Assembly (NCBI GenBank): GCA_002269645.1
Contig: NIVC01000319.1
Coordinates: 1-64,000, forward strand
From: Macrostomum lignano
Lineage: Eukaryota
Reading direction: 5' to 3'
Length of the DNA stretch: 64,000 nt
In this document: positions 13,541-61,668 of the stretch, one piece after another
Layout: every line of letters begins with the position of its first letter
Numbering within the stretch: position 1 is the stretch's first letter
Program-made: the position numbers and the translations under genes
The notes under the pieces: generated by a model
Database searches by the model: none
What the model saw: only the letters and a program-made list of their open reading frames with translations
What the model was told of the DNA's origin: nothing

Positions 13541-13749
13541 CAAAATTTTAGTTATAATAAGTGATAATTAATTTCGTCTTTAAAATGAGTTAGCAGGAAA
13601 AATTGAAAATATTTAGTCAGTTTCACTCTGACCAATTGTCCTGTTGAAAGGCAGAAAAACTTATCCAAAATCAACTCTCTAAACTTGTGACGGCAAGCAA
13701 TTCATACCTTTAACAAATCATTCTCTCCTTTCAGAAACTGGCGATCCCG

Positions 13750-16700: not shown

Positions 16701-16922
16701 GCAGTCTATTTCTTCAAAGCTCCAACCGAATGGGAAGGCAGCCCGGCTGAGTCCCGAGAATCCAACAACGACTGCTTGTGGCATCCGCTTGGCCTGCCGT
16801 TCGACCAGCACGACCTGTGGCATCTGATCGGCTCGCAGGCGCTGCTCTGCCTGCTGCTCTTCGTTCTCTTCATGGACTTCGATGAAGAGCGACAGGAGCT
16901 CGCGGCAGACCGGATTTTCTGA
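13750..16922 (+). CDS. SID-1/SIDT-family transmembrane protein, paralog 1 (apparent 1-nt deficit early in coding exon 2)
   Basis: Exon 13750-15771 (donor GTGAGA), exon from 15925. Signal peptide; FYCLPVFQLV, CYYNFKC, FNNAVSNAGY, ALAMEGVLSACYHICPSHNTFQFDTTFM, SPAESRESNNDC, FDQHDLWH, DFDEE. 15925-16127 is 203 nt, one short of frame (near CATCACCCGAG, 16051-16061), unless a rare GAG acceptor at 16061 is used. Confidence 0.88.
15037..15465 (+). repeat. Coding 39-bp tandem repeat x11 (NDQPD[P/L]PVNIN[A/S]G)
   Basis: Directly visible in DNA and protein. Confidence 0.95.
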
Positions 16923-20617: not shown

Positions 20618-22260
20618 CGACCTGATGGAAAATTCCGGCTCCAATTTCGTAGTTCGAAGAGTCGCACTCCAAGAACAGCTCCGCTGCTGCATCATGCTGC
20701 TGCATCCTAAACGAGCCAGGACGTTCGGTTGGACCAGAAGACGCTTGCAGGTCTCGAAAGCCGTCTTTGGCGCCTGTCCCCAGCGCCATAGGGTTTCCTT
20801 TTTGAGCATCTGCTGAAGCGAACTCAAGACTGTCGAAAAGTTAGGCAGAAAATTTCCGTAGTAATTCACGAGACCCAGAAAACTCCGCAGCTGCGTCAGG
20901 TCCGTGGGCTCAGGCGCATCCACTATGGCTTGGACCTTGTCCTTCAGTGGATGAAGGCGGCCTTCCGAGTCAATGCGGTGTCCCAGGTACGCCACTGAAT
21001 CTTGCATGAAAGCGCACTTCCCACGGCTGCAGTCAAGCCAGCGCCCTTAAAAACGGAGAGCGCCCTGAGCTTGCTGCAGTCCTGTCCAGTGACGATGACT
21101 TCGTCCATGAATGCAGCGCAGTGAGCAACGCCATGCAGCAGGCCGTCCATGACCCTCTGGAACATGCTTGGCGCCGTCGATACCGAATGGAAGCCTCGAG
21201 TATCGAAGAAGCCCAAATGGGGGTATCTGAGAGAAGGTCTGACTCAGATTCAGCTTGGTAAACTTCTTGCCTCCGGCGAGTCTCGAGAACAATTCGTCAA
21301 TTTTTGGCAGTGGTTACGTGTCCGAATTAAAAGAAGCGTTGACGGTCTGTTTAAAATCGGCGCAAACCCGATCTGATCCCCATCCGATTCATTACAGGAA
21401 GGATCGGCAACGCCCATTCTGAGGACTTCATGAGGTACAGCACTCCCTGCAGCACCTCCTTGTTCAGCTGCTGCTCGACGTTGGTCTTCAGTGAGAACGG
21501 AATGGAGCGGGCCTTGCAGAACCGAGGCCTGACATCCGGCTTCAGCTCTATCGATAGTGGCGTGCCTTTGAATGCATCGAGGTCACCAAACACCTCGACG
21601 AGTTCGTCCAGTAGCCTGCTGGACTGCCAGTCGAGTTGCAGCTGCCGCAGCCAGTCGCAGCCGAGCAGACTTGGGCCTTGCGACTTGCTGAGGGCAATTC
21701 CAACTTACCGAGCACTTTAACGGAGTGTCCGGAGTATGTGCTCAGCTGGTCAGTTGATGGGCTTAACTCGGGGCCGCCGTGCAGGACATCCTTGTAGGTG
21801 CGCTCCGATATCAGCGACACGGAAGCTCCAGTGTCAACCTCCATACGGTACGGACGTCTGTCGATGAAAACAGTTGTGATGATCGGGGGCACAGCTTCGC
21901 TGCGCGCGGAGGCGGAACCAAGTTGATGCAGAAAGTACGGCTCGTCTTGAATTTTTTCAGCGGTTGTCGCCTCAGAAACTTGCTGCGGCTTGGTTTGGCT
22001 GAGGCTGATTTCTACAAGCCCTGGACACCTCTCCATTTTTGTGGCACCGGAAGTACTGCTTTTCGATGAACAAACACTTTTGCAACATGTGCCTTGTCGA
22101 CAGGCACCTGCTGCATCGCCTCTGATCAGCTGTATCTTGAGAACTGTATTCTCGGTCTTGCTGCTCTCGCTGGTCCCAGTGACTGATTGGTCCTGGTCCC
22201 AATGGTCCCAATGACCTTGCAGTTCTTTGTTGCCGACTCTTGTAGTAAATGGTTATCGTA
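20618..22260 (-). mobile_element. Decayed Ty3/Gypsy (Mag-like) gag-pol fragment
   Basis: Zn-knuckle remnants (C..C.STRH...C; FRCHKNGEVSRAC), protease MEVDTGASVS, RT (SEWALPILPV, RLPFG, APSMFQRVMDGLL, AFMDEVIVTG, VAYLGHRID, LRSFLGLVNYY); many frameshifts; no LTR seen. Confidence 0.85.
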
Positions 22261-22437: not shown

Positions 22438-22728
22438 TTTTAGTCAGTTGTCGGATTGCAAGTTGGGGTGGTGGTCGCTTAGTGTTGAATTTCCAATTGT
22501 CTGTGCCCGCCTGATGAGTCACCACACAAATGCAAACCAACAAACAAACCCTCACCAGTTATCAGTAGGCCGTAGGGAAAGGACAGTTATACTATTGGTC
22601 TTGTGCCAATGGTGCCACTGTCACAGTGCTGATGTTGTTGACTCGCTTTTAGCAATCCCAATCGATTCTCCAATTTGAAGTATGAACACTTGAGTTCTTT
22701 ATCCTTAGGGTAGGACCTCCAAATTAAT

Positions 22729-23305
22729 CAAATGTTTTTGAATAATGTGTTGCGGGGGTGTGCCCCTCTGACGATGACTATGATCGTTGATGTTGCTGTT
22801 GAATCAAATAAGTCGGAGGTTCGATTTGTTTCTCTCGATCTCTAACCTTCAACAAGATGTTTATTACTAATCAATGTTAGTAGCAATTCCTAATAGGATA
22901 TTGATCACGCAATTACGCAAATTTGTTAAGCAATTCAGTGAAAATGGAGCCACAGGCTACTTATCGGTATTGTTGCACGAATTGACGTTTGTCCGGATTT
23001 ATCTCTGTTAAATCGGGATATTAGAGTTCAGGCCCGATTGTTGGGGCAAGCTAGCGGAGCAGTTGAGGAGGCAAAGAGGCGGAGAGCCGAGAACCGGGAA
23101 AAAACTGGAGAGAGGCTTCATTCTCACTGAACGCTAGTATATATATGATTTCTATAACGCATTTCATTGGTGTTCGCTTCACGCAATAGGATCTTTACTG
23201 GTGCACAAGCATGTGCTGTACTTTCCTGATAGAAAAACCTTCTGAAGTTCGCATTAGACTAAAAAATAACATTGGGCATAACATGCTTAAATTAAGATCA
23301 CTTCA
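22729..23305 (-). repeat. 3' LTR
   Basis: Matches 35538-36114; on the element strand, TATATATA near 23137-23146 and AATAAA at 22860-22865; purine-rich GAAATAAGGGCAA immediately inside (weak PPT). Confidence 0.95.
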
Positions 23306-25029: not shown

Positions 25030-25870
25030 TCACACATCCCGTGAGCGCAGATGATATCGCACAGCTGGAATAGGTTCTAGTCCGTGCTGATCACGAGTGT
25101 CAGGCTCATCCACGACGTCAGTCTGAGTAGCGTGATGCTGTGCCAGTGGCGGGTGGTGGTCGAAGTGAGTCTGTGGTATCGATGATGTGAAGTTCGGCAG
25201 ATTGAGTTCCTCTTGTGGTTGAAAAGGGGAACGTTTTAGCTTGGAGGCATGGACTACGAATGGTGGCTCTGTCAGCTTATTAATATCCTGGATTAGCGCA
25301 TTCTGTGGGCTCAGCCATTTTAGAATTCGCATCGGTCCTCGGAACGGATTAGAGAACTTTGTCGGCTTAGTAGCAGATATGTCTAAGTAACAGCGGGAGC
25401 CTATGGTGAGCTTTTGAGCATTAGGGGCTTTTTCTTCGTTCTGTTTCTGGGCCCGTTGATCGGCTGTAGAGTGTAGGTGATGGAGAGCAATTTCTCTGGC
25501 CAATGTGATCGCTGAGCAGGTCAAGCTGATTGGTTGGATTTCCTCGGTGTAGATCGATATTTGATTTTCGAGGATTCTTGTGCTGGGTGCCAGGAAGTCA
25601 CGGGCGTAGAACAGGTAGAATGGCGATTCCTTCATGGCAGTGTGGGCTGCGGTGTTCAACGCAAGAGTCACTGCTGGCAAATATTCGATCCAGTGATCGG
25701 GCTTGTCGTGCACAAAGGTAGTTAGTGTCTGTTTGAGGTTTCGGTGGGCACGTTCTACGAAATTGCTGGATGGTTGATAGACTGATGTGTAGATCAGTCG
25801 GATTCCCATTGTGTCCATGTACTCGCGGAACTCCTTGGAAATGAACTGTGGTCCATTATCAGAATCAGAC
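25030..25870 (-). CDS. Integrase C-terminal half (second D, E, GPF module), after a 1-nt frameshift
   Basis: SDNGPQF...TSVYQPSSNFVERAHRNLK, WIEYLPAVTLALNTAAH...ESPFYLFYARD, KFSNPFRGPMRI, ending RYHLRSRDV. Confidence 0.9.
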
Positions 25871-27422
25871 AGGCCGGAAGTCCGGCTATCGCGAAGACAT
25901 GTCGAAACAAATGGTTGCAAATAGTAGACGTGGTTGTATCAGCCAGTGGTATCGTGAACAGAAACTTGCTAACACCACACTGAGCTGTCAAGATGTACTT
26001 GTACACATCTCGCATGTAATGAGCCGGTGGTAACGGTCCTACAAGATCAATAGCCAGGTGTGAGAAGACACTGCGGAATTTCATTGCTTTCTGTTCTGAA
26101 CGCAGTCGAGGTCCTGATTTGGCTTTTTGACAAATCTCGCATTTGTTAACGAAGCTTGTCACGTCTGCGTGGCAATTGGGCCAATAGTAGAATTTGCTGA
26201 GTCGGGACAAGGTTTTCTGAAGACCAAGGTGTCCTCCAAATGGAGAGGAATGGCATTCCTGAAGGAGAGCGTCTCTGTAGGCGGTTGGGATCACCAGACG
26301 TGGTGTCGACGAGTTAGGACTACGAGAGTCACCTTCCAATGGATCGTAGTAGAGTGTGTCGTTGGTGTAGTAGAAGTGGTGTAGATGTTTCGTCAGATGT
26401 TTTTGTTCTGTTTTCGATAAGTTCTTGTACATGGATGTTAGTACGTCGTCTTTTTGGTTCTGTAGAGTGGCTATCACTGTCGCACAGAATGGGTCTTGGT
26501 TTACTGCTTCGTGCAAGTTGTCAAAGGCTGGGATGGGATGTAAAGTATTCACACTAGGAATACGGGACAGGCAGTCGGCTACAGCGTTTGAGCGGCCTTT
26601 AATATAGTGGATCGAAAATTGGTAATCCTGTAGATGTAGAATCCACTTTTGCAGTCGTTTCGAGAGAGGCTGTTTGTCAGTGAACAGAGATTGCAACGGT
26701 TGGTGATCCGTGAACACTGTAAATGGTAGGTGTGAGGCGTATAGGAAAACATGGAGCTTCCGAATCGCCCAATAGATGGCATAGGCTTCTCTCTCAATGG
26801 CAGGATAACGTTGTTCCGTCGGAGTCAAAGTTTTAGAGATGTAAGCGACGGGTTGCAGATGTCCACGCGAATCGTGTTGAGAGAGGACTGCACCAAGAGA
26901 GTAGTCAGAGGCATCCGTATGAAGCACGTAGGGCTTTCGAGGATCAGGATGTACTAGTATAATATCAGTTGACAGAATCTTTCGGATGTTGTCAAAGGCC
27001 GTCTGTGTGATAGTAGTCCATTTCAAACTTTTTGTAGCCAGAGCGTCTTTGAGAGCACGAAGCAATGGTGTCACAATCGTAGAGTATCCTTGTACATGCG
27101 AGCGATAAAAGTTGGCAAGTCCGAGGAAGGACTGCAGTTGCTTAGGTGTCTTAGGTTCCGGGAAGTTCTTAATTTTTTCGACAAGCGCTGGTGCCGGTCG
27201 GATTCCATGTTCGGACACTTGAAAGCCTAGATACTGTACTTCGTTCTTTGCAAAGGTGCATTTTCTAAGCGAGATACGAAGACCGTGATGGCGGAGTTTC
27301 GCCAAGAAATGTCTGAGTTCACCCAGCATGCCATTAAAGTCCTTTGCGATTAGGAGTACATCGTCCAGGTAGGCGATAAGATTAGGTGAATCTGCTGTGA
27401 GTAGAGCGACTAGACGACACAT
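25861..27422 (-). CDS. Pol middle: RT palm/thumb, RNase H, integrase Zn finger and first D
   Basis: IAYLDDVL, KCTFAKNEVQYLG, LQSFLGLANFYR, HTDASDYSLGAVLSQ, EREAYAIYWAI, TDHQPL, SNAVADCLSR, H..GH...C..C, AIDLVGPL. Confidence 0.93.
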
Positions 27423-30400
27423 CAGCTGGGAGATGCGGCCAGACCCTGTGGCAAGCGATTAAACTGAAAAAGGAGGCCATTAGGTGCGATGAAGGCGGTA
27501 TATTTGGCGCTGTCTGGGTCTAGTCGGACTTGGTAAAACGCGTCGGCAAGGTCGCACAACGAATAAAGTTTGGCGTCGCGTAGGCGGTGTAGGAGGTCCG
27601 GTATACGTGGCGGGCGTATGCTTGGTGTTGTTAGAATTCGGTTGAGACGGCGAAAGTCAACGACAAGACGCAATTGGCGGCGTCCTTGTTCATCAAGTGT
27701 CTTCTTTTCGACCAGTAGACATGGGCTTGAGTATTCCGACTCGCTAGGGCTGAGTATTCCTTTGTGGATGAAATTCTCGATCAGTTGGTCAAAACGCTCT
27801 TGAAGACCATGTGCAATCGGAAAAGGTCGCGATGTAATTGGATGCGTATGTGGTTGAACGTTAATTGTGGCGGTATATTGAGTAGTGCATCCCATATCCG
27901 TAGGTAACAGAGCCAGCGTATCTCGGTACTCTAAAAGTAGGTCGCACAGTCTCGTAGCTTGTTCGGGTGTCAGATGCGAATTGTTAGGCCGTGTTTGTTG
28001 TTCAATTAGCTGGCGGTCGGTCTCAGGTCGTGCGTGCGAGGTAGAGATGGTATTGACTGTTGCTGTAGGTTTTGAAGTAACAGGTGTATATTCCGCGGGA
28101 TCGGACAGACTGCCTAATCGTGTTTGAGCATAGAGTGTTACTGGCTGTAGTGAAGGGTTAGCGATCTGTATGAGGATCGAATTACCCGTTTCATCTGTAA
28201 GCGTCAAGCAGCTTGCGATTAAGAGCTTATAGCGTTGAATAGTATGATCCTTTGGTATGAATAGGACAGGCTGGCGCTTTGGATAGGTCGTGTCGATATT
28301 CGCCTGTATCCAGGTGGTAGATTGAGCGGGTATGTGAGTCTGCTTTGGCAAGTAGACTTCAGCGACCTCAGTTGCTGTGTAAGTATTCAATATGGGAAAC
28401 GAAGTGCCATCGATTTGTGCTTCTGACTTGGCGTAGTCAATGGACAGTGGTATGCCAAGGGATTTAAAGGTTTCGACACCGAGAATTAGATCATAATCGG
28501 GTGGCATAGCCTCCAATATGTAAGCTGTGATTTTCCGATTTGATGATCCGATGATCATACTAAATTTAGCCTGTTTAGTTACGTTAAGAAGTTGTCCTCC
28601 TGCACATTGAACGCGTATTTTACAGGGTAAAATGTCAGCCTGTAGTTTCTGTGCGAAGGTAGGTGAAACGCAAGAGATAGAGGCGCCACTATCAATCAGC
28701 GCGGTGCACTTGCATTTGGTCATTCTTGGGCTTGTGCACCAGAGCGTGATGAGGGTTCGCATCGTAAGATGTTTCAAGACGGTGTTGTAGGCAACCGGCC
28801 AGTGTTGAAGTGTCGGGTAGAGTCTTGAATCTGTCCGTGAAGAAGTAGACGGTATAGCTGGCTGTCGTTCTTCGAGTTCCATAGGTGGAGCTGATGGGGC
28901 TGTCGCCTTTGTGTTTCTCCTAGAGGGCGAAGTAAGTACTAATGGTACTAACGACACGTGGTCGGAGGTAGTAGGAAGTCGCTGTGGGCTCCGGTTTTGT
29001 TGCGGTGATGGGTCGGTCGTTCGCATTACCATAAGGCGGTGTGTTCGACCATAAGTTAGTGTGTTGGCAACGCAGATTCGACCAATGTTGCAAAGGAAAA
29101 TTAGTAGTGCAGCGTAGACAATTACAGCAGAACTGAACAGAAACTTCTCCATATGATTCTGTTGGAATCTTTCCCAACTGAAGAAGGTAGATGTCCAAAG
29201 ATTCTGGTAAGCTTCCAAGGCGTTTAGGCCAAACTGCTTGAATTCATCCTTGTGGAGACGTCCAGTAGCGTTGTTTAGTTTAAAGACAGTGATTAGAAAA
29301 TCACGTGTTTGGATGAAACTTTCCATCATGTCAGTTATTGTTACTGGTGATCGTAAAGCGCTGTAGTTGACGTCTCCAAGTGGCGTGAAGATACTCTGTC
29401 TAATGTCGGAGTATAAGGACTGTAGGAGGTAGGTTTCGTCGGATCTATTTTGTGCTTCTATCGGACTAAAGGAGCTGAAGTTGGCTGTGGCTTTGTAGAT
29501 GAATTCACCCTTTGGAAGATAGTAGTCTCGTAGGTAACGGCAGGATATTAGTGGTGGTCTTGCTGTTGAGATGATCGATGTCGTTGTATCGAGGAATCCG
29601 AGAACAGACTTATTGTGGAGTTGAAATTGTATCGGTGGTCTTGTGTAGCATTCGTCTCGTGAGTATCGCGGTTGAACGAACTGGAACTGACTTAGTGGCT
29701 TACATTGGTGAACAAAGATGTAGCCAGCGATGGAGTGCGCATAAATGAATTTGTCAGCGAATAATTGACGCGCAGCTAGTGTCGGATTGGTATAGTATAG
29801 GTTGCGACTATAGCGAAGATTCAAAGCGTACATCTTGCACTGCGTAGTCGTCAGTTGAGTGTGTAGTTTCTTGAGATCGAGTAGAGTCTTCGATTGAAGT
29901 CCTTGTAGTTGACTGGAGAGAAGCTGTGCCGAAACGAGGTTTTCTGATAGCTTGAGTTCAGCGTTGGTGATGTTGACTGTTTTGTCTGGAGGTGGAATCG
30001 CGCGACGGATTCTGTCCTGATGTTCCAGCATTGGTGGTTGGTCGCGGTGTAGGTATGGTATATTAAGAGGATCAGGTTCCAGTATGGTAGTAGGTGTTGT
30101 AGACATAGGTCCAGGAGTTAGTTGTTCGGTGGTAATACCGGTAGATGTCGTCGTTTTCGTAGTTAGCGGACTATACGACGTAACTGTAGTTGTGGCTACT
30201 GTCGTTGGTAGAGTTGTAGACTTAAGTTGAAGAGATGTAGTGTGTTGAGGTTTTCTAAGCGACATCGTTGTTGTGGGTGTTTGAACTGTACTAGTCGCTA
30301 TTGTCGTAGTTGGTGGAGTTGTAATTTCCAGATTTAGAGGTGTGGTAGTAGATTTTTTAATTGTAGAGGTAGTGACAGTAGGCTCGGATGTAGGTGAAGC

Positions 30401-33400
30401 TGTATCAAGCGTCTGCTGTGAGGGTAGAGACGTAATAGTTGGAGCTTGAACTGTCGTCGGAATCGGTGTGGTTGACGGTTGTTCTGTGGTAGCCAATAAG
30501 TCAGGTAGTGAACGGCTCTGTCGAGAAGATGAGCTGCTGTCAGCTGTTAAAGCATCCGCGGCTTTGACAGAGCGTGTTGTGTTGCTCGTGGTGTCATCAG
30601 CTGTAGATTGCACAATCGCGATTGACTTTAAGAAGTCTTCTTCTCTGTTGTCGAGCACTTCAACGTACAGTTCTTGTTCGGAAACATATAGTCGTTTCGT
30701 TCCAATTGAGCAGGTAAGGCGGAAGGGTTGAAGCGGCAATTTAAAGGTCAAAGCCAATGTCTGTTCTTCGTTAATGAAGAATCCCGAGTGTATGTTACCT
30801 CGAATTTGTCGGAATGGCGTGAGTATACAGTCCGAACGGCTTGTTGTTTTCCACGTAAGTGTCAGTTTTCGTTGGCCAGTAACGGTCAGTTGTTGTGTCG
30901 CCGGTGGGTCGAGAGTGTCCCATGCGTTTTGAAGGAGAGTTGTCGGTAGGTTATAGCGTTTCATGTTGTCAAAGGTTGTCTCAATAATGCAGCCTTGAGA
31001 TGAATAGCTACAGTGTGCCATGGAGAAGGCTAACGATTCCATTGGTTTGCTAGGAGAGGCGAAAGCTATTATCCCTTGTATGAGTGTTGAAACTATTTGA
31101 GTTCGTGCCTTGCGATGGTAACAGTCTTCGAGGAAGGAGGTTCCTGTATTGGAGCGAGAGATTTTGTAGTTTCCAGTGGTGGCAACCAGTTGAAGCTGAC
31201 CATCAGGTGAGTTATATGATTCGGTCCAATGTTGGCAATCTTGTGCGGCGACTGTAAGTGGGCGTAAGGTTACGTACGCATCACGGAGAGAGCGCAGAAC
31301 CTGGCTCATTGGGAGGCAATTAACCGAGATTTCCTCACGGAAGCATAAGCTGACTGGTGTTCTGGTTTGCTCCAGGTTAGTAGAGTAGAGCTGTAAGTGC
31401 ACTGGTGTCGTAACGTCCTGTGACGACGTGAACTGTTCGCATCTGATCTGCTGAGGAATCTTGAAGATGCGCACGGGTCCATCTAATGGACAGAGCATTG
31501 GTGTGTCCACGTAGAGTGGATGTTGCTTAGGATTCGATGGCAGTGGTGTTGTCTGCACCGTCGGGAATAGCGATAGCCAGATGAGTGTCACGAGAAGCGT
31601 CGTTAGACCAGTTAGTCGACGTCCTTTCTGCTGAGACAGTGGTCTTTTTACGTGTACCTGCTGTCGCTGGGCACGTAGCATATCTTTTCTTAGCTTTGGT
31701 TGAGCGGCTGATAGCGTAGTGTACGGTTGAACGTGGATGACTGACAGTGTAGATGGACTGTCGCGGATTAATTTCTTAAACTGCCTGGTCGAGCCATGGA
31801 ACTTGTACTCAATTGGTCTGTCCAAAGCATAGGTTGGAGTAGCCGTTGATTTTGCCACAGGAACCTCAGTGAGACGCTGTGGAGCACTGGGTGTGCTGTT
31901 CGGTGGCACAATTTGTTGAGGCGAGTCCATAGTCGGCAGTTGTGGCATGGGGTCGTTCGAGACAACCTGAATTGAGTTTACACCGGCTGCAGGAGGGCGC
32001 GGTGACGGTGTTCTGGAACGTCCGTGGTTTGGTGAATCAGAGTGGCGTTCCCGTTGATATCGTTGAGTGGGGTTGCGCTGAAATTGTACGCGCCGGCCTA
32101 GATTATACCGCTGTGGGTTATTGTTTGTTGTTCTCCCCTGTTTAATATCGTGTAGGGTACGACATTCTTCGGTATCATGGGTGTCCGAGTTGTGAAAGTG
32201 GCAGTATTTGGCTGGAGAGCCTGTGTCTCGGCTGCGAGGATCATCGGAGCCTCGTCTGTACCGGTCTTGAATCGGTTGATTGCGTGTCCACTTAGAGTCA
32301 GCCTGTCTTGGTTGTCTAGCATTGGCAGTTTGTTGGCGTGCATTTCGAGGATCCTGGTAGCATCGATCTGTTGTGTGTCCAATCCTGTGGCAGAATTTGC
32401 ACGTTGGTGGTTCTCTAGTATTGCTAGCGCCTTGAATAGCCGCTACTATTGGCTTGGGCTTGATGGTTCCACATTCTAAGGCAGCAAGGCGTTTTTCTAT
32501 ATCGGCCGGAACGTTGTTTGGGGCCGTTAATTGTGAAGACTGCTGTATTTGTTCAAGGCGAATGGCCTGGTTGAGCAGCTGTTGTTCGGTATTCAGCGGG
32601 TTTCGCAGTAGTTCAACGCGAAGGTGAGGTAGAGCGCCACTTAGTATATGGCCGATCAATGTTTTGTTAAACATTTCATTTCGTTGGTCAATGACCGCTT
32701 GGTTAGCCGGTGCATTTTCGCCATCCACGGGTGGTAGTGGCGAGACTTCTGGGTATATGGCACGAAGTTTGCGGCGAATGTCCGTGTAGTACTGGATGAA
32801 TGGCTCACCCGGGAGTTGTCGGCGGTTGGCGATGTGATGTAGTGCCGAAGTGGATCCGAGAGTGAGTACCGCTATTCTGTCGGACAGAGACCGAACTAAT
32901 TGGGTGTAGTCATTTTGTGTCTCGGCGGGTAGAGCGGCATATTCGATCTTTAGGAGATCGTTGAGGAGCCGAGGAAAGATGCGAAGCTTTGAGTTTTCAT
33001 CTAGATTAAAAGTTCTCGCTGATAGATCATACTCCATGATGAAAGAGGCAAAATCATGAAGTTGATCTATCTCCTTGAGACCTTCGCGGATCTCGTTGAT
33101 GGTACTAGCTGGGATTGCAGCGTGTGGTCTTTGTTGATCTCGCACAGCATTGATAAATTGTTGCATTAGTGCTTCTGCCATTGTAACGTTGCTCTCAGTT
33201 TCCTGGATATTGGCGTTATTTTGATTCAAATGATCAGGTTGCAGAAGTGGCTGTGGAGGATGTTGTTCTTGTTGCTGCTCGTACAACTCAGAAGGTTGTT
33301 CTTCGTCTCTGGTGCCGATGGCAGTGTTTTCTTGATGGAGGCCAGGTAGATGGCAAAATGTAGCTGGGGTAGCTGTTTGTGTTAGTTGCTGTTGGGTGTC

Positions 33401-33586
33401 GTCAGTATGGTGTCCTCCAATGCCAGTAGAATGTCCACCAATACCAGTAGAATGTCCACAAATGCCAGTAGAATCACCAGAAATATCAATAGGATTTTCA
33501 GCGACACCGGCAGAATTTGGTGTGGATATTGCAGGCGGCTCTTGTTGTTGTTGTTGTCCGAGTTGGGTACCAGAACGCAATTTCAT
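27422..33586 (-). CDS. 2054-aa ORF: Gag - internal signal - envelope-like glycoprotein - TM - aspartic protease - RT N-terminus
   Basis: Gag with CKFCHRIGHTTDRC (32360-32401) and CHFHNSDTHDTEEC (32162-32203); hydrophobic LTGLTTLLVTLIWLSLFP (~31555-31615); Cys-rich ectodomain, Thr-rich stretch, RIRR (30002-30013); TM FLFSSAVIVYAALLIFLC (~29085-29145); LIDSGAS (28685-28693); SPCLLVEKK, LRLVVDFRRLN, DLADAFYQV, FNRLPQGL. Confidence 0.93.
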   Translation of the reverse strand: MKLRSGTQLGQQQQQEPPAISTPNSAGVAENPIDISGDSTGICGHSTGIGGHSTGIGGHHTDDTQQQLTQTATPATFCHLPGLHQENTAIGTRDEEQPSELYEQQQEQHPPQPLLQPDHLNQNNANIQETESNVTMAEALMQQFINAVRDQQRPHAAIPASTINEIREGLKEIDQLHDFASFIMEYDLSARTFNLDENSKLRIFPRLLNDLLKIEYAALPAETQNDYTQLVRSLSDRIAVLTLGSTSALHHIANRRQLPGEPFIQYYTDIRRKLRAIYPEVSPLPPVDGENAPANQAVIDQRNEMFNKTLIGHILSGALPHLRVELLRNPLNTEQQLLNQAIRLEQIQQSSQLTAPNNVPADIEKRLAALECGTIKPKPIVAAIQGASNTREPPTCKFCHRIGHTTDRCYQDPRNARQQTANARQPRQADSKWTRNQPIQDRYRRGSDDPRSRDTGSPAKYCHFHNSDTHDTEECRTLHDIKQGRTTNNNPQRYNLGRRVQFQRNPTQRYQRERHSDSPNHGRSRTPSPRPPAAGVNSIQVVSNDPMPQLPTMDSPQQIVPPNSTPSAPQRLTEVPVAKSTATPTYALDRPIEYKFHGSTRQFKKLIRDSPSTLSVIHVQPYTTLSAAQPKLRKDMLRAQRQQVHVKRPLSQQKGRRLTGLTTLLVTLIWLSLFPTVQTTPLPSNPKQHPLYVDTPMLCPLDGPVRIFKIPQQIRCEQFTSSQDVTTPVHLQLYSTNLEQTRTPVSLCFREEISVNCLPMSQVLRSLRDAYVTLRPLTVAAQDCQHWTESYNSPDGQLQLVATTGNYKISRSNTGTSFLEDCYHRKARTQIVSTLIQGIIAFASPSKPMESLAFSMAHCSYSSQGCIIETTFDNMKRYNLPTTLLQNAWDTLDPPATQQLTVTGQRKLTLTWKTTSRSDCILTPFRQIRGNIHSGFFINEEQTLALTFKLPLQPFRLTCSIGTKRLYVSEQELYVEVLDNREEDFLKSIAIVQSTADDTTSNTTRSVKAADALTADSSSSSRQSRSLPDLLATTEQPSTTPIPTTVQAPTITSLPSQQTLDTASPTSEPTVTTSTIKKSTTTPLNLEITTPPTTTIATSTVQTPTTTMSLRKPQHTTSLQLKSTTLPTTVATTTVTSYSPLTTKTTTSTGITTEQLTPGPMSTTPTTILEPDPLNIPYLHRDQPPMLEHQDRIRRAIPPPDKTVNITNAELKLSENLVSAQLLSSQLQGLQSKTLLDLKKLHTQLTTTQCKMYALNLRYSRNLYYTNPTLAARQLFADKFIYAHSIAGYIFVHQCKPLSQFQFVQPRYSRDECYTRPPIQFQLHNKSVLGFLDTTTSIISTARPPLISCRYLRDYYLPKGEFIYKATANFSSFSPIEAQNRSDETYLLQSLYSDIRQSIFTPLGDVNYSALRSPVTITDMMESFIQTRDFLITVFKLNNATGRLHKDEFKQFGLNALEAYQNLWTSTFFSWERFQQNHMEKFLFSSAVIVYAALLIFLCNIGRICVANTLTYGRTHRLMVMRTTDPSPQQNRSPQRLPTTSDHVSLVPLVLTSPSRRNTKATAPSAPPMELEERQPAIPSTSSRTDSRLYPTLQHWPVAYNTVLKHLTMRTLITLWCTSPRMTKCKCTALIDSGASISCVSPTFAQKLQADILPCKIRVQCAGGQLLNVTKQAKFSMIIGSSNRKITAYILEAMPPDYDLILGVETFKSLGIPLSIDYAKSEAQIDGTSFPILNTYTATEVAEVYLPKQTHIPAQSTTWIQANIDTTYPKRQPVLFIPKDHTIQRYKLLIASCLTLTDETGNSILIQIANPSLQPVTLYAQTRLGSLSDPAEYTPVTSKPTATVNTISTSHARPETDRQLIEQQTRPNNSHLTPEQATRLCDLLLEYRDTLALLPTDMGCTTQYTATINVQPHTHPITSRPFPIAHGLQERFDQLIENFIHKGILSPSESEYSSPCLLVEKKTLDEQGRRQLRLVVDFRRLNRILTTPSIRPPRIPDLLHRLRDAKLYSLCDLADAFYQVRLDPDSAKYTAFIAPNGLLFQFNRLPQGLAASPS

Positions 33587-35523
33587 GCAATGATCTGTGG
33601 AATGGGTTTACTTCGAGTGGTCTTGCAATTAAGAGTTGAAAATATAATCCGCAATTTTGTAACAATAAAGATTTGAAATAGTGTGAAGCAATAGCATCTG
33701 AGCGTGATTTGCGGTCATCTATCCAGGGTCAGTTTTTTGTTTTATATAAGCAAATTTTCAATATGTAGAGCTTCGGTAGCTGTAGTATCAATTATCAAAA
33801 GTGTGAGTTTAGAGCAATTTTGAGCAAGTGTTGAACAGTTGTATAAAGTAGAACTGAGTAGAGTCGGCTGATGCGCCTGTACTAATTATAATATAGCTCA
33901 GCGGTGGAGCGGTTAAAATATTTCATAGAAGCAGCAAGAAAAGCTGAGCCTCATCCTTGGATTGAGTTTGATTAGAATTTGAACAGATTTCGGTAGAAGA
34001 TTCAGCGGAGGCGGCAATGTGCGCGTTGATTGATGCCTTTGAGATTGAACGGATTGGCGTTGAAAACTCAGCTGGTGAGTTGTGGTTAAGATGCCAGCGG
34101 ATGTGGCGATGCGTGTTGAGTACGCGATTTGAATTTGTTGTAAAAGGAACGAAAGAGACTCTGCAGAAGTCTGTGGAAGCAAGGCAGAGGCGTATGAGTG
34201 GCGTGCCAAAACTTCAAACTTGGAACACGATGAGCATGAACCAAGCACCAGTCCTGGGTTTAAGTGTGTAATTGACAAATAGATTCGGCCGACTAAAATA
34301 GAATTATAATTACCTGAAGGCAGGTGTAGAGGTCCTGTGTATAGGACAAATTGCCGCGGGCTTATCGCTGCTAATCATGAAGAAATGATGTGGCTGCTTG
34401 AAATTGAGAAACAAGGAATAGGGAATAGGAGAGGGTGGGTAGCAATCACAGCGTAATTTTTATTTTGTTTTGAGAAATTTTGAACGACTGCGAAGGCTAA
34501 AGGGCTGGTGTATGGGTAGACGAGGGTGGTAGGTTGTACTTTGCGGAGAAGGAAAGCGGATTGTAGTATAAATAAGAGCTTGGGACGGAAATTATTCCCA
34601 TTAGAGAACAATGGGGGTTTCTGATGGGAAAGCCCAAGGAGGGGGAGCAGCCATTGAAACAAAAATGAATTCCCTGGGGTAAGAGAAGATTGAGAGTACT
34701 GAGAGTGTCGCACCGGTGTGACAGAATCATTCTCCCTCACTTTCTATCCCTGGGGATGAGAATTGCAGCGGAGAGAAGAGCTGGAGCGGATCACAGCTGA
34801 ATTGTGGTAGGGCGTTGAGCCAACTGAGTGAGGCGCGGAGCCGATAGGGCGTTTTAGCCAACTGAGTGAGGCGAACTGAGGCCAGTTGAGGCTGGTTTGT
34901 GAACTGATGCAGACCGGAATGGAACTAGAATTTCCAGAAGACGAAAAACGATGCAGATCTGCTGTGAACCAGCCGGAGTAAAGGCGGAATTCTCCGGACG
35001 AGAACTGGTTTTGCGAGGCTAAAAATAGAAAAAGGATTGAGACAATGCTGGTTGCCTGGTTGGGATTTGTCGCCCAGGCAGGATATTTATAGAACAGAGT
35101 GAGATTGTGGAGAAAGAGCAAGGTGAACTTGACGTTCTTTGAGGTGAGGCGAGCAAAGTACTCGGAGAAAGTATATCAGAAGGGCGTAAATAGTGGGAAT
35201 GGGTGGATTCCCATCGGAACCGGTTTGAGGACTGGTTCGCTGCTGGTTCTCCGAAGCGGGAGAGCGATTAGAGGTTGTAAATTTAAGAACATTAAATAAC
35301 ACTAATCTTTTCTACGATTCTACAGCTTGGGAGAATCATACACGTAGTATTATTGTAGTTTTGCAAATTGTATTGGTTTTTATATTTTGTAATTTTTTAA
35401 TTTTTATATTTTTTACTGACCCTTTCTAAGATGCCATCACTAGCTCATAGCCAGCTCCACGGAGGTGTTCACCCCAGCATATTGAAGCCGGGCATGTTGA
35501 AGGAAATTACGGAGAGAAACAAG

Positions 35524-35535: not shown

Positions 35536-35537
35536 GT

Positions 35538-36114
35538 CAAATGTTTTTGAATAATGTGTTGCGGGGGTGTGCCCCTCTGACGATGACTATGATCGTTGAT
35601 GTTGCTGTTGAATCAAATAAGTCGGAGGTTCGATTTGTTTCTCTCGATCTCTAACCTTCAACAAGATGTTTATTACTAATCAATGTTAGTAGCAATTCCT
35701 AATAGGATATTGATCACGCAATTACGCAAATTTGTTAAGCAATTCAGTGAAAATGGAGCCACAGGCTACTTATCGGTATTGTTGCACGAATTGACGTTTG
35801 TCCGGATTTATCTCTGTTAAATCGGGATATTAGAGTTCAGGCCCGATTGTTGGGGCAAGCTAGCGGAGCAGTTGAGGAGGCAAAGAGGCGGAGAGCCGAG
35901 AACCGGGAAAAAACTGGAGAGAGGCTTCATTCTCACTGAACGCTAGTATATATATGATTTCTATAACGCATTTCATTGGTGTTCGCTTCACGCAATAGGA
36001 TCTTTACTGGTGCACAAGCATGTGCTGTACTTTCCTGATAGAAAAACCTTCTGAAGTTCGCATTAGACTAAAAAATAACATTGGGCATAACATGCTTAAA
36101 TTAAGATCACTTCA
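35538..36114 (-). repeat. 5' LTR
   Basis: Matches 22729-23305; abuts the PBS. Confidence 0.95.
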
Positions 36115-40101: not shown

Positions 40102-43100
40102 TGTTATATCCTGTGTACCGTATAATTAATTGTAAGTATCCTGGGCCTATAGTTGATGGAACCCGGGCTGCATGAAAACACCTGTGCAAACCCCTGTTGT
40201 GTTTCCCCAACAGAAAAGAGAGGCTCCGCTTCTCTCTTGGCGATAAATACAATACACCCCTTGCTGGCTACGCGCGCACTGTAAGTGCAAACCCTTTCAT
40301 TTTGTACTAAAGCACTATATACCGAGTGCTTTACCGGCCTTTTTTCTTAAAACAAACAAAAAATGGCGACGAGCAGCATACCGTACCCCGCGGAGTTCCA
40401 AGCAGCGCCAATGGATTCTCCAGTGCCATGGGTGAAGTGGATCAGCGCTTTCCAGAATTTCCTTGTGACCGGCGACCTGGAAGCTGCGTCTGAGAAGCGC
40501 AAAAGGCGAACGTCCTGGACCTACTGGGCAAGGAAGGACGACGTTGGGAATCACTGAAGGACACGATTTCCCTTCTTTGGCTCGTCGAAAAGCATCAGAG
40601 AGTGACTCCTGAAGGAGAAGGACTGCCACACGCTGGACAAAGCCGTCAAGATGGCCAACAGGATCGAGAAAGCGATCAACGACTCCAAGAAAGGCGGTGG
40701 TCAAGGCCTCCAGGTGAAAGCAGTGAGCAAGAAGGGTGCGACTCCAAGATACAGCAAAAAGACACTATCGACCGGTAACAGCTGCACACGATGCGGAGAC
40801 GGATACGGGCAGAAGGACGTTTGCAAGACCAAGGGTCAAAAGTGCCGGCGATGCGGCAAGCTGGACCACTTTGCCAAGTTTTGCCGCAGCAAGGAAGTGT
40901 CGATTGTCAGTGCAGGAGAGACAAAGCAGCCAGGCCCAACAGTACTGGCCTCGGGTGGGATCTGTTTCAAGCGCTTGGCTTTACAATCTTCCAAGGCGAC
41001 AGCAAGGTTGTTTAACATCACTGAAGAAAGTGTTGAGCGCGACTTCATGGAGATCTTTAGAGACCTTGGAAAATCTAGAAGATTCATTTATCGACCATAG
41101 GTTGACCACAACGTCGGACGGGTGTCTTAACCGCTTCGGAGGCTAAAGGACGAAGTTATTGTGGAGATTGCCCGAATGGAGCAGGAAGGAATCATCGAGA
41201 AAGTGAACGCATCTGAATGGGTTAGTAACTCGCAAGAAGGATTCCAACAAAGTTCGACTATGCGTGGACCTGCGCCAAATTAACAAGATGGTGATCGCCG
41301 ATCGCTTCCCTGTTCCATCGATCGAGGACCTGTCGGACCTGCAAGCTGGATCTTCGACAAGGCTATCAGCAGATCCCGCTGCACCCTGACTTCAGGGGTC
41401 TCATATTCTTCATCAGCGACTTTGGGCTCTTCCAGTTTGCCGTGGTGCCGTTCGGGCTGTCAAGCTCGTGTGCCGCATTTAAAGAAGCGCTTTTGGGAGC
41501 CCAGGGCGCTATTAACATTGTAGACGATATCCTGGTGCATGGCAAGGACCAAGCAGAGAACGCAGGAACCTCCGAGAGATTCTGTGTCGACACCACGGCG
41601 AGGGTCTGATTCTGAACCGCGAGAAATCTCAGCGGAAGGCACAGAGCCAACAAAGTCTAATGTGGACGCGATCCTGAATATTCAAGAGCCGACGTCAGTG
41701 GTGCAGATTCAATATTTCTTAGGTGCAGTAGATCTCCTGCACAAGTTTATTACAAACTATTCTGCTACCGCTGAGCCATTGCAAGCATTGTTGCTCAAAG
41801 ATGCGGACTGGCACTGGGGCGACCGAGAGCTCACGGCGTTCCAGGCACTCGACTCCTAGCCCAGTGTTAGCGCACTTTGACAGCCAGGCAGATACCTACG
41901 TCACCTGCGATGCAAGCCTTGGTAGACAAGGGGTAGTGCTCACCAAAGTACAAGGCTGCAAAGAGGTCTCAATTGCATACGAATCCAGAGTGCTCAGCCC
42001 AGTCGAGACAGGACACTCAGCTGGGGAGCGAGAGGCTTTGGCTTGTGTCTGGAGCATCGAGAGGTGGCACAACTACCCGTGCGGACAGACCACAACGCAC
42101 TGACAGCATTTCTCGACTCCAGCGGCACCGATCATAAGCCGTTGCGCATTCACTGGTGGATCGAGAGGCTCCGCGGATATGACCTCTGGCTGAAGCGCAT
42201 CCCAGGAGATGAGAATCAGTGCGCAGATCTGCTATCCAGATGGGCAGCAACTGAGAGTGCCAGCAGAGGAGACCGATGAGGAAGGCTACATCTACGCTAT
42301 TATCGAGTCCAAGACGGCTCTGACCGATTCAAAGCTGGCGGAAGCAACGAAGGACGATGAGGAGCTGCAAGCCATTTTGCAGTTTATTGCTACTGGGTGG
42401 TAATGCAAGTTCAACCCTTCGACCTTACCTTAATGCCAAGGACAAGCTCTTTGCCTGGAACGAGGGTCAGTGCCTCGGACGAGTAGAGCGAGCGCGGTTA
42501 TTCCGCAGAGTTTGCGACTCCAAGTCATTGAAGAAGCTCGAAGGTCATCAAGGTCATCCAGGCATTGTGCGGACCATGCAGCGGTGTAGGGACACGGTGT
42601 GGTTTCCTGGCTGGTTAAGCACCATGTCAAGAACTGTACAGCCTGCATCCTGGCGAAAAAAATCCGGCAAGACGCAGCAGACAATCATGACTCCTTTCGA
42701 GTGGCTCAAAGCAATCGTAAAACAAGATTGAGGTTGACATCTTCGGTGAGGTTGTCGCAGCCCCGCGGCATCAGCGATTCCTGCTGGTTGTGCATGACCT
42801 GCACAGCAAATGGCCAGAGATCGCAGCGATGAAGACTGTGACATCGTCAAACGTCTGCAAGGCGCTCAGGAAGCTGTTCATCCGCTGGGGGTTTCCAGGG
42901 TGCTCATCAAGGAGGGTCTCGCCGCAAACCTGAGAGCGGGAGTGAAATTCGAGGATGCCATTGACCTGGTGCTGAAGACCTGCAGGACAATTCCCCATGC
43001 GCTCACAGAGGGTCGAAATGTTGCCAATGGGCTGAGAGAGGGTTTTGAGGCAAAGTGGGTGTCTATCGGGCACAAAGTCGTTGTAGTAAAAATGGTAGAT
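40102..43100 (+). mobile_element. Decayed Mag-like Gypsy element: probable 5' LTR (~40102-40358), PBS, gag-pol remnants, 3' end lost
   Basis: TG...CA candidate LTR; PBS TGGCGACGAG at 40364 (complement of tRNA-Ser(GCT) 3' end) overlapping the gag ATG; WVKWISAFQNFL, CRRCGKLDHFAKFC, RT (EQEGIIEKVNASEWV, VPFGLS, IVDDILVHG), RNase H (CDAS, EREALACVWSIE), integrase GHPGIVRT. No second LTR in the window. Confidence 0.85.
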
Positions 43101-43304
43101 ATTTGTGTCTTTGAAAGGAATTAGCAGAAAAATAGAGAAGAGCTAATCAGTTTCGTTCTGACTAACTGTCCCGTTAAACAGACTGTCCTGTTAAACAGAC
43201 CCGTTAAAACTTATCCGAAATCAACATTCTAAAGCTAGTGCAGACAAGCAATACATACCCTCAAGTCAAGCAATCATTTCCCCTTTCAGAAACTGGTGAT
43301 CCCG

Positions 43305-43688
43305 ATGACTCCGCTGATCTCAACGCTTAGGCTGGTGCTGTTGCTGGCATTCCTGATTCTGCCATCGCAACCAGCTGCAGCTCAAACTCAACCGATACTT
43401 CCGCTTGGTCAAGCCCGCAACTTTTCCATCAGCTCTAAACGCGCACTCGAAGTTCTTGTGAAATATACTCAGCCTGAAAATGAAACTGTAGCTCTTCGAT
43501 TGGAGACGACCAGCTACTCGAATGCGTCGCTTCTTGTGGTCGTCAGGCAGCAACTGACACTGCACACCTGGTCGCTGCCATACACCTTTGTTGATGTGAG
43601 CAGCACAGGCGATCAGAGCACTGTAGAGAGCTTCCAGTCGGTGACCAGGACCATCTGCCCACCGCATCTGAGTACTCAGACACCTGAT

Positions 43689-43719
<31 letters not shown>

Positions 43720-50316: not shown

Positions 50317-51604
50317 TTCTCTGGTTCAGGTTTGCAAAAATCAGACCCAGTAACTAAAAACAAATATTGCCAGATCAAAACTAGTAAAAAGCGAAGTAAA
50401 ACTCTATTAGTTTACTTTATCAGTAGTAATATTGTCAGGTTGCTCGTTCTGTCTCTGAAAGACAGAAATAAAATTCCAAAGGTGTAGGCTATATAAGTTT
50501 GTTGCTGTCATTCGTCCACCGCCCTTCTTACTTAGCCAACGGAATAGATTATTTTTACCTGCAGATAGCTGCAGTCCAGTTAGCAAATGATAAAGTTGCT
50601 TGCGATGTGTTTAGATAGATATGGCGCCATCTTCAGTGTGAAAGATGGAGCTGTTTTGTTACCAGTAAGTTCTGTCCCTATTGACAGCTAGTCTGTGGAG
50701 TGTACTTTCTGTGCACACTGCAACAGCTGAAGCTACAAGTGGTTTTAGAGCTAGACGCTCAGAATTCTCTCACTAGTTAAATTACGAGTATTATATTCAG
50801 AATAAAAAACAGAGCACATTTCCCTTGCTTTGAAGACTCTACCCTTCTCGAATTATGCCAGTATATTTTGCGTACTCGACTAGCTAAAGAAGGTCTGCAT
50901 TATGTAAGTTACGAGTTACGTATTTCCACGTCAATCTATGATAACTTACAACGTGGAATGTTTTTATTAGCACCTTTGTCATCTCGTTTCGACATTTCGT
51001 AGCACAGCTGCCAGAATACTGGTAAACTAGATATGTTCCTCGCAAATATTGAAAAAGCAGAGTCTACTTTTTCCGTGGTTGTCTGCGCAGTGTCACGTAA
51101 ATTTGACGCATTGTGACGTATCTAAGAGTTATTACAGTTTATAAATTATTTTTGACAAGTAGGAGCATATGTCTCTAGAAAAAGTAATTAAAAGTTGTCC
51201 GCTAATGCCATGCAACTTAGAGTGAGGATCACTCTCTTGCGCGTTGTGACTGAGACGAAAACGTTCTATCGAAAATTTGAACAAAACCTTAATTATCGTT
51301 CGAACGGATGTTGGGGCAGTGGAGATGCAGGGGCAAAGGGGTGTTAGGGCAGAGGGGTTGTTGAGGCAGAGGGGGAGGGGGTGTTATGGCGCAAAGTTAT
51401 AGTAATATTAATAGATAGTTAATTGCATCTTTAAAATTAATTAGCAGAAAAATGAGAATATTTACGAGTAGTCAGTTTCGTTCTGACCAACTCTCCCGCT
51501 AAACAGGCTGAAAAACGTACCCGAAATCAGTTCTCTGAGCTAGTGCAGACAAGCAATTCATACCTTCAAGCAATCATTTTCCCTTTCAGAAACTGGCGAT
51601 CCCC

Positions 51605-54600: not shown

Positions 54601-54688
54601 GCAGGCCCTGCTCTGCCTGCTGCTCTTCGTTCTCTTCATGGACTTCGACGAAGAGCGAAAGAAGCTCGCGGAAGACCGGATTTTCTGA
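51605..54688 (+). CDS. SID-1/SIDT-family paralog 3, intact 2-exon CDS
   Basis: Exons 51605-53680 and 53819-54688, phase 0, open throughout; SACYHICP, FQFDTTFM, SPAESRDFNSDC, FDQHDLWH retained. Confidence 0.92.
52931..53370 (+). repeat. Coding 39-bp tandem repeat x11 (ADHAERPENNDAV)
   Basis: Near-perfect units, preceded by one degenerate unit (SDELEPPENINAV). Confidence 0.95.
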
Positions 54689-61536: not shown

Positions 61537-61668
61537 TGCCTGAGCCGACAGCCGCATCCTCCGGCAGATCTCCGCCTGAGCCGACAGCTGCATCCTCATG
61601 CAGATCTCCGCCTGAGCCGACAGCCGCATCCTCATGCAGATCTCCGCCTGAGCCGACAGCCGCATTCT
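61537..61668. repeat. 36-bp tandem repeat x~3.5 (CTGAGCCGACAGCCGCATCCTC..GCAGATCTCCGC)
   Basis: Direct reading; open in several frames. Confidence 0.9.

What the first reader, a model, noticed from the sequence alone, without database searches (positions are those of the whole stretch)
25030..33586. Gypsy element with gag-ENV-pro-RT-RH-IN order: an envelope protein embedded inside the polyprotein
About 850 aa of type I glycoprotein (internal signal ~31555-31615 to TM ~29085-29145) lies in frame between the Gag Zn knuckles and the protease DSG motif, with no stop on either side. In the env-bearing LTR elements I know (errantiviruses with baculovirus F, Tas, Cer7/Atlas, Anakin, retroviruses), env lies downstream of pol. 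Correcting two 1-nt deficits gives one ~2850-aa ORF. The implied topology (cytosolic Gag, lumenal Env, cytosolic Pol) resembles a flavivirus or alphavirus polyprotein and would fix Gag, Env and Pol at 1:1:1. This is a candidate new lineage of infectious invertebrate retroelement; novelty needs a literature and database check.
Basis: partly seen in the sequence, partly recalled or inferred. Interest (0 to 1): 0.95.

Follow-up and report, generated by a model that had tools for sequence, protein, structure and literature searches.

The report
Flatworm retroelement with built-in envelope protein
This is a young jumping gene of a flatworm whose single long protein carries a viral membrane-fusion protein between its capsid and its enzymes; the layout is already published for flatworms, nematodes and bryozoans, but short budding-signal-like motifs in the envelope's inner tail may be a new clue to how such elements leave the cell.

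Summary
A 13.4-kb Ty3/gypsy element (identical LTRs, 4-bp target duplication, tRNA-Asp primer site) encodes Gag, an internal signal, a class III gB-like fusion protein, a transmembrane helix and PR-RT in one frame. Four of eight near-identical copies have open frames of 2859-2866 codons, and a public 2852-aa Macrostomum lignano protein holds all domains without a stop. Six subfamilies in this genome share the layout, and env is under purifying selection.

The novelty claim fails. GAG-ENV-POL elements with gB-type env are described in flatworms, nematodes and bryozoans (PMC13524379). The one element listed there for this species matches a distant sister family (env 26-27% identical); the window's family is unlisted. 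A continuous nematode gag-env-pro-pol ORF is, from recall, in Sacco 2022.

Two details may be new. Retroviral late-domain-like motifs sit in the Env cytoplasmic tail: P[ST]AP in 5 of 6 subfamilies, and any motif in 19 of 68 distant homologues against 3.8 expected. A mucin-like insert lies at the furin loop. Likely mechanism: a membrane-threaded polyprotein, cut by host and element proteases, budding through ESCRT recruited by the Env tail. Budding and infectivity are inferred, not shown.

The parts
35537..36114 (-). 5' LTR, 578 bp, termini TG...GA
   Evidence: 100% identical to the 3' LTR; termini and 4-bp target duplication TTAA
35523..35535 (-). Primer-binding site complementary to the 3' end of host tRNA-Asp(GTC)
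   Evidence: Sequence; the complementary end is found in host tRNA-Asp genes, 3 of 3 loci checked
33587..35522 (-). About 1.9-kb leader; longest stop-to-stop frame 153 aa
27425..33586 (-). Gag-Env-PR-RT(N half) open frame, 2054 aa (P0001)
32552..33181 (-). Gag capsid-like domain
   Evidence: Atlas neighbours with Ty3_capsid/Retrotrans_gag, score 0.93-0.94 (lead); no direct Pfam or PDB hit
32162..32401 (-). Two zinc knuckles (CCHC and a CHHC variant)
31556..31612 (-). Internal signal / signal-anchor sequence
   Evidence: Hydropathy 1.65; a hydrophobic peak at this place in subfamilies B-F; signal function inferred
29141..31543 (-). Class III (gB-like) fusion protein ectodomain
   Evidence: AlphaFold model, mean pLDDT 71, 333 of 801 residues at 90 or more; Foldseek best hit pseudorabies gB E 3.9e-14; nyamivirus glycoprotein E 3.2e-20
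30107..30586 (-). Ser/Thr-rich mucin-like insert at the furin-loop position; minimal RQSR site at 30515-30526 and RIRR at 30005-30016
   Evidence: S+T 42-53%; pLDDT under 50; absent from subfamily D
29084..29140 (-). Env transmembrane helix
   Evidence: Hydropathy 2.33
28784..29083 (-). Env cytoplasmic tail / linker with PSAP (28886-28897) and LYPTL (28808-28822), late-domain-like
28427..28741 (-). Aspartic protease, DSG at 28685-28693
   Evidence: Pfam PF13650 E 1.6e-6
25030..27886 (-). RT, RNase H and integrase; broken twice in this copy
   Evidence: Pfam RVT_1, RT_RNaseH, Integrase_H2C2, rve; best PDB match Ty3 Gag-Pol E 1.1e-58
22728..23305 (-). 3' LTR

Best explanation
A recently active flatworm Ty3/gypsy element of the published GAG-ENV-POL, gB-type-env kind, made as one polyprotein that threads the ER membrane twice. 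Shown: one ORF, exactly two hydrophobic segments flanking a class III fusogen, purifying selection on env, young dispersed copies, late-domain-like motifs enriched in the Env tail. Inferred: Gag stays in the cytosol and is held at the membrane by the internal signal; signal peptidase frees the Env N-terminus; the TM stops transfer, so that Pol is the cytoplasmic extension of Env; a furin-type enzyme cuts the ectodomain at the usual gB loop and, in subfamilies A-C, may trim out the mucin-like insert; the tail's PSAP and YPxL recruit TSG101 and ALIX, so particles bud through ESCRT with Gag, Env and Pol already at one membrane; the element's protease then frees capsid, nucleocapsid, PR, RT-RH and IN at cytosolic sites of the V-N/A-S/T/A-I/L type. 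The particles would carry the element between cells of the worm, for instance into germ or stem cells. My odds: identity and single polyprotein 0.9; this topology 0.8; ESCRT recruitment by the tail 0.55; cell-to-cell transmission 0.5.
For: Single ORF. Same layout in subfamilies B-F, env 26-69% identical to the window's. Of 43 database homologues of 1000 aa or more, 28 show Gag signs upstream of env, 23 Pol signs downstream, 13 both, none RT/IN upstream; one is a 2517-aa Globodera rostochiensis record. Fold; subfamily D env hits Pfam Monjiviricetes_fusion at E 1.6e-8. Selection: env pN 0.22-0.42 against saturated pS 0.76-0.86 in three subfamily pairs. Youth: 41 LTR matches at 98% or more (lower bound); 7 of 7 full-length copies checked have a 4-bp duplication and different flanks. 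Tail motifs: P[ST]AP in 5 of 6 subfamily tails (0.19 expected from shuffles; once in the other 12,417 residues), [LI]YPx[LI] in 4 of 6 (0.03 expected; never elsewhere), PPxY in 1 of 6 (0.36 expected). Held-out: 19 of 68 distant tails carry a motif against 3.8 expected; P[ST]AP 6 v 0.65, YPx[LI] 9 v 1.87, PPxY 8 v 1.38; the canonical order beats every permutation of the same letters. PTAP binds TSG101, YPXL binds ALIX, PPXY links to NEDD4 ligases (PMC8952333, passages). The host genome has UEV and BRO1 domains. Subfamily D has no Met between its last zinc knuckle and the signal, so env has no own start there.
Against: 49 of 68 distant tails carry none of the motifs, so the mechanism is not general or uses other motifs. 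Subfamilies B and C lack YPxL and F lacks P[ST]AP. The motifs were first picked from A and D, and A-C and D-F are related, so holds about three independent lineages. YPx[LI] is also a Yxx-hydrophobic sorting signal, and some permutations score close (STAPP-type 4 v 6; PxPY 4 v 8). TM-scores to gB are low (0.30-0.41), as for flexible multi-domain proteins. RQSR is one of 8 RxxR matches in the ectodomain, so a two-site excision of the mucin is weak in subfamily A. Subfamilies A-C do have in-frame Met codons before the signal. No protein, particle or expression data were obtained.
Confidence: 0.6

Rival explanations
1. The DNA is one ORF, but the element makes two messages: a spliced or internally started RNA gives Gag-Pol (or Env-Pol) for ordinary retrotransposition, and the full-length protein is a minor product. 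Stoichiometry is then not 1:1:1.
For: Capsids normally need far more Gag than Pol (established knowledge). Subfamilies A-C have Met codons shortly before the signal. PMC13524379 speaks of three ORFs and of ectodomains flanked either by a signal peptide and a TM or by two TMs.
Against: Subfamily D has no Met between the last zinc knuckle and the signal. The frame is continuous across both junctions in unbroken copies of subfamilies A, C, D, E and F, and across signal-env-PR in B; separate messages would not need that. Protease-site-like motifs lie on the cytosolic side of both membrane passes (motif read by eye from the sequences).
Confidence: 0.2
2. Env is functional but the tail motifs serve trafficking (endocytosis, sorting into multivesicular bodies, ubiquitin-dependent turnover of Env-Pol), not budding; capsids assemble otherwise, or spread is by cell-cell fusion.
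For: YPx[LI] fits the Yxx-hydrophobic sorting consensus; other Yxx[LIMFV] variants are common in the tails (A 6, L 5 against P 9). PPxY and PSAP also act in ESCRT cargo sorting (established knowledge). Most distant tails lack the motifs.
Against: All three retroviral late-domain classes are enriched separately and occur together within 20 residues in subfamily E (LYPSI, PTAP, PPNY), the arrangement of retroviral p6/p9-type peptides, which also lie just before the protease (position recalled).
Confidence: 0.15
3. Env is a passenger: a captured viral gene tolerated inside the polyprotein with no role in spread.
For: Internally deleted forms exist (a joint 25210-30951 in run X17; truncated copies).
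Against: pN far below pS over both halves of env; cysteines and the gB core are kept across 54 aligned sequences; 800 residues inside an essential polyprotein would be lost quickly if useless.
Confidence: 0.04
4. Assembly artefact or one-off nested insertion of a viral gene.
For: The window copy has two frame breaks, and other copies break at different places, so the assembly may hold indel errors.
Against: 8 near-identical copies, 6 subfamilies, junction-bridging contigs in 4 of 4 runs, the same layout in a nematode record.
Confidence: 0.01

Closest known systems
GAG-ENV-POL 'ancient errantiviruses' with HSV/gB-type ENV (Chary and Hayashi, eLife 2026, PMC13524379), in particular Mlig_errantivirus_2
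   Same: Ty3/gypsy pol, gB-type env between gag and pol, flatworm host, multi-copy. Subfamily E here has the 864-bp LTR and the primer site that the paper's table gives for Mlig_errantivirus_2 and is itself one 2538-codon frame.
   Different: The window's family has a 578-bp LTR, a tRNA-Asp primer site, an env only 26-27% identical to E's, and a mucin-like insert; it is not among the 9 flatworm rows of the table. The main text has no occurrence of 'polyprotein', 'in frame', 'mucin', 'late domain', 'ESCRT' or 'splic'. Its figures were not visible to me and may show the fused layout.
Nematode non-canonical ERVs (Sacco et al. 2022, J Gen Virol; title seen in a reference list, content recalled)
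   Same: From recall: a continuous gag-env-pro-pol ORF, metavirus RT, a glycoprotein like that of nyamiviruses. Here the best named viral fold match is Midway nyavirus glycoprotein, and a Globodera record has the same layout.
   Different: Flatworm host; in a 14-row RT-RNase H tree subfamilies A, C, E and F group together (98/97) apart from the group holding the Globodera record; no accessory ORF over 153 aa.
Insect errantiviruses (gypsy, ZAM) and BEL/Pao elements with env (Tas, Atlas, Anakin)
   Same: LTR retroelements that carry a viral fusogen.
   Different: Env lies after pol in its own ORF; insect gypsy uses an F-type env; Tas, Atlas and Anakin are BEL/Pao (recalled; PMC13524379 section 14 for the mosquito BEL/Pao glycoprotein).
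Retroviral late domains (HIV-1 p6; PMC8952333, passages)
   Same: PTAP, YPXL and PPXY motifs in a short disordered peptide just before the protease.
   Different: Here the peptide is separated from Gag by the whole Env and hangs on the Env transmembrane helix.

Membership tests
Ty3/gypsy (Metaviridae) | Pol order PR-RT-RNase H-IN | tested here: met
Ty3/gypsy (Metaviridae) | LTRs, tRNA primer site, short target-site duplication | tested here: met
   LTR ends TG...GA, not TG...CA
Ty3/gypsy (Metaviridae) | RT closer to Ty3 than to retroviruses or caulimoviruses | tested here: met
   Ty3 Gag-Pol E 1.1e-58 and Ty3 RT E 6.9e-41 lead the 17 PDB matches; the PDB samples few clades
Ty3/gypsy (Metaviridae) | Clade placement against GyDB/Repbase references | not testable with these tools
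   No such library on hand; the tree holds only fetched rows
GAG-ENV-POL gB-type errantiviruses (PMC13524379) | env between gag and pol | tested here: met
GAG-ENV-POL gB-type errantiviruses (PMC13524379) | HSV/gB-type (class III) ectodomain between two hydrophobic segments | tested here: met
GAG-ENV-POL gB-type errantiviruses (PMC13524379) | Host in Nematoda, Bryozoa or Platyhelminthes; multiple near-identical copies | tested here: met
   The identical protein is named Macrostomum lignano by NCBI; 8 env copies
GAG-ENV-POL gB-type errantiviruses (PMC13524379) | Cysteine-bridge configuration class (C1/C2/C3) | not tested
   Defined in figures that could not be seen
Mlig_errantivirus_2 (the listed element) | 864-bp LTR and its listed primer site | tested here: not met
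   Window: 578 bp and tRNA-Asp site; met by subfamily E instead
Nematode NERVs (Sacco 2022, recalled) | Continuous gag-env-pro-pol ORF | tested here: met
   the definition is recalled
Nematode NERVs (Sacco 2022, recalled) | Nematode host and one RT clade | tested here: not met
   Flatworm name; does not group with the Globodera record
Insect errantiviruses | gag-pol-env order with F-type env | tested here: not met
BEL/Pao env-bearing elements | BEL/Pao pol with env downstream | tested here: not met
   No BEL/Pao-specific Pfam family among the hits at E up to 1; RT matches Ty3
ESCRT-dependent budding (late domain) | P[ST]AP, YPxL or PPxY on the cytosolic side | tested here: met
ESCRT-dependent budding (late domain) | Binding to TSG101/ALIX and need for particle release | not testable with these tools
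   Needs bench work

The most novel reading that the evidence does not exclude
GAG-ENV-POL gypsy elements are true budding retroelements built on a flavivirus-like plan: one membrane-threaded polyprotein in which the late domain has moved from Gag to the Env cytoplasmic tail, Pol is packaged as the tail of Env instead of the tail of Gag, and one flatworm lineage has added a furin-excised mucin-like shield. That would be a route of Pol packaging and budding not known among retroviruses.
Probability: 0.4. Interest if true: 0.72.

Novelty: new member of a known kind. Interest (0 to 1): 0.42.

Why it matters
The gene order is published, so this is not a new lineage. But PMC13524379 says the entry and transmission mechanism of gB-bearing elements is unknown, and I found no account of how a Gag-Env-Pol chain is processed or released. 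This family is young, multi-copy and lives in a laboratory flatworm, and the tail motifs give a concrete, cheap prediction (binding to host TSG101/ALIX; particles that depend on ESCRT). If borne out, it shows an independent solution to linking capsid, fusogen and polymerase in one particle.

Tried and rejected
Sequence searches of the window env alone found nothing firm: Pfam Glycoprotein_B only at E 0.071, no PDB sequence match, Atlas scores under 0.9, though all near hits were viral fusion proteins. A word-based search for longer homologues with alignment A2 scored none of 2131 candidates, not even P0005, so it was discarded as uninformative. Expression and splicing: no RNA holder listed (the 'RNA?' labels are guesses). 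No joint that skips env appeared in the three guessed-RNA runs, but contigs drop rare forms and cannot show a transcript, so this is used neither for nor against. Programmed frameshifting: one slippery-type heptamer in the ORF, not pursued. The bacterial promoter scan of the LTR is not applicable. One search was a wrong-frame translation. Sacco 2022 is not held. Literature searches with no paper on the point: 'gag-env-pro-pol' 0 papers; Macrostomum + LTR retrotransposon + envelope + gypsy 0; single ORF + signal peptidase + retrotransposon + glycoprotein + gag 0; two late-domain searches gave 6 and 3 listings, reviews and unrelated papers judged by title and abstract start. Earlier scan findings: none. 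No complex prediction was sent. The dN/dS bounds printed assume a value for saturated dS and are not quoted.
Full report
Observation. The element lies on the minus strand between two identical LTRs, 578 bp each with TG...GA ends and a TTAA target duplication. The primer site matches the 3' end of host tRNA-Asp(GTC). One frame of 2054 aa (33586-27425) holds a capsid-like region (a lead), two zinc knuckles, a hydrophobic segment at 31556-31612, about 800 aa of ectodomain, a second hydrophobic segment at 29084-29140, the protease and half of RT. The rest of pol lies in two further frames, so this copy is broken twice.

Is it real? Yes. In the same genome 8 copies carry a full-length, 100% identical env; 4 of the 8 have open frames of 2859-2866 codons. 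The only hit of a search with the env C-terminal half among proteins of 1129-3595 aa is a 2852-aa record that NCBI names as Macrostomum lignano; it runs Gag-Env-PR-RT-RH-IN without a stop and has only the two hydrophobic peaks. Contigs from 4 of 4 runs laid bridge both env junctions and do not share the window's breaks where they cover them, so the breaks are private to this copy or to the assembly. There are at least 41 LTR matches at 98% or more, and 7 of 7 full-length copies checked have their own flanks and a 4-bp duplication: the family is young and has been transposing.

Relatives. Five more subfamilies (B-F) have env in the same place. Unbroken stretches join Gag, signal, env, TM and protease in C, D, E and F, and signal-env-PR in B; E and F are open for 2538 and 2458 codons. 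Env differs mostly at silent sites: pN 0.22-0.42 against pS 0.76-0.86 in pairs A-B, A-C and D-F. A profile search found 239 homologues at E up to 0.001 and listed 150. Of the 43 listed ones of 1000 aa or more with an env match, 28 have Gag signs upstream, 23 Pol signs downstream, 13 both, and none has RT or IN upstream. Of 20 looked up by name, most have none; one is a 2517-aa Globodera rostochiensis protein with the full layout.

The envelope. The AlphaFold model of the window ectodomain (54 sequences) is confident outside the Ser/Thr-rich insert. Its best solved matches are all herpesvirus gB (E 3.9e-14, TM about 0.3-0.4), and the best named viral matches are nyamivirus and other mononegavirus glycoproteins. 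The insert-free subfamily D env gives the same answer more strongly (E 5.1e-21) and hits Pfam Monjiviricetes_fusion. So it is a class III fusogen. The mucin-like insert (S+T 42-53%) is in A, B and C and absent from D. It sits where distant homologues have one RxKR site, and has a basic site on each side (RQSR/RIRR in A, RQKRR/RNKR in C). Excision is an inference, weak for A.

The tail. The 80-104 residues between TM and protease carry P[ST]AP in 5 of 6 subfamilies (0.19 expected by shuffling; once in the other 12,417 residues) and [LI]YPx[LI] in 4 of 6 (0.03 expected; never elsewhere); E has LYPSI, PTAP and PPNY together. I picked the motifs from A and D, so I tested them on held-out homologues: from 142 hits (the top 8 left out as probably the same host), 68 had a locatable TM and tail; 19 of 68 carry a motif against 3.8 expected, and each class is enriched on its own. 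The canonical letter order beats all permutations, narrowly for some. Against: 49 of 68 have none, hosts and independence of these rows are mostly unknown, a few tails are probably misplaced, and YPx[LI] is also a sorting signal. PTAP, YPXL and PPXY are the retroviral late domains (PMC8952333, passages), and the host has UEV and BRO1 domains.

Mechanism. The most economical reading is one polyprotein that crosses the ER membrane twice: Gag cytosolic and held by the internal signal, Env lumenal, Pol as the cytosolic extension of Env. Signal peptidase, a furin-type enzyme and the element's protease would cut it; V-N/A-S/T/A-I/L motifs stand after capsid, after nucleocapsid, before RT and before IN in P0005 (read as protease sites by inference). 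The tail would recruit ESCRT and drive budding. The ORF, fold, selection and motif enrichment are shown; topology, cuts, budding and transmission are inferred. A spliced Gag-Pol message, or a trafficking role for the motifs, are the main rivals; the available runs cannot decide on splicing.

What is known. PMC13524379 (seen: abstract, section 14 whole, the first parts of sections 5, 6 and 9, term passages, rows of supplementary files 1 and 2 by search; passages of its bioRxiv version; no figures) states that elements of Nematoda, Bryozoa and Platyhelminthes carry only HSV/gB-type ENV in GAG-ENV-POL order, in several clades, and that some ectodomains lie between two transmembrane domains. Its table has 9 flatworm rows, one for M. 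lignano, with an 864-bp LTR and another primer site. Subfamily E matches both; the window's family does not. The paper credits Sacco et al. 2022 with the flipped order in nematodes; that paper is not held, and my memory that it reports a continuous gag-env-pro-pol ORF with a nyamivirus-like env is recall only. The eLife main text has no 'polyprotein', 'in frame', 'mucin', 'late domain', 'ESCRT' or 'splic', and searches listed nothing on processing or budding of such elements; subscription papers, the figures and the authors' sequence files may hold it.

Verdict. A real, young, unlisted member of a described kind. The architecture is not new; the late-domain-like Env tail and the mucin insert are modest, testable additions. 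Novelty: new member of a known kind. Interest 0.42; 0.72 if budding through an Env-tail late domain with Pol carried on Env is confirmed (probability about 0.4).

Noticed in passing
window 13714-16922, 43239-46035, 51539-54688 (+): Three SID-1 family (dsRNA channel-like) genes surround the element; two carry a 39-nt tandem array within the reading frame.
   Followed up: partly
window 3915-4994 (-): A 360-codon open frame with both mandelate racemase/enolase-superfamily domains in a 60% GC stretch; origin not examined.
   Followed up: no
window 1795-2607 (+): Transmembrane region of a neurotransmitter-gated ion channel.
   Followed up: no
window 58488-62984: Foldback-like structure: two inverted arms built of 11/31/42-nt minisatellite units around about 3 kb.
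   Followed up: no
window 21551-22252 (-) and 40606-41097 (+): Weak aspartyl-protease (E 0.001) and zinc-knuckle (E 0.0075) matches near the element; possibly remains of older retroelements.
   Followed up: no
window 22728-23305 and 35537-36114: LTRs end TG...GA, not TG...CA, in 7 of 7 copies checked.
   Followed up: partly
window 25045-25056 (-); L037, L038: A YxLR motif closes the integrase in subfamilies A, E and F; it resembles the foamy-virus Gag chromatin-binding motif (recalled, untested).
   Followed up: no
window 25210-30951: One run holds an internally deleted form lacking most of env and pol; an empty-site-like joint across the whole element appears in the same run.
   Followed up: no
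P0088, P0146: Two env-bearing retroelement proteins are labelled 'Gammaproteobacteria bacterium' MAG proteins: probably animal DNA in bacterial bins.
   Followed up: no
P0007, P0012: Public gene models that fuse this kind of element with glycosyl hydrolase or laminin exons; likely annotation chimeras.
   Followed up: no
tails before the protease, L009-L038 and homologues: A WP dipeptide recurs shortly before the protease in all six subfamilies and in 18 of 68 distant tails, against 4 for PW; unexplained.
   Followed up: partly
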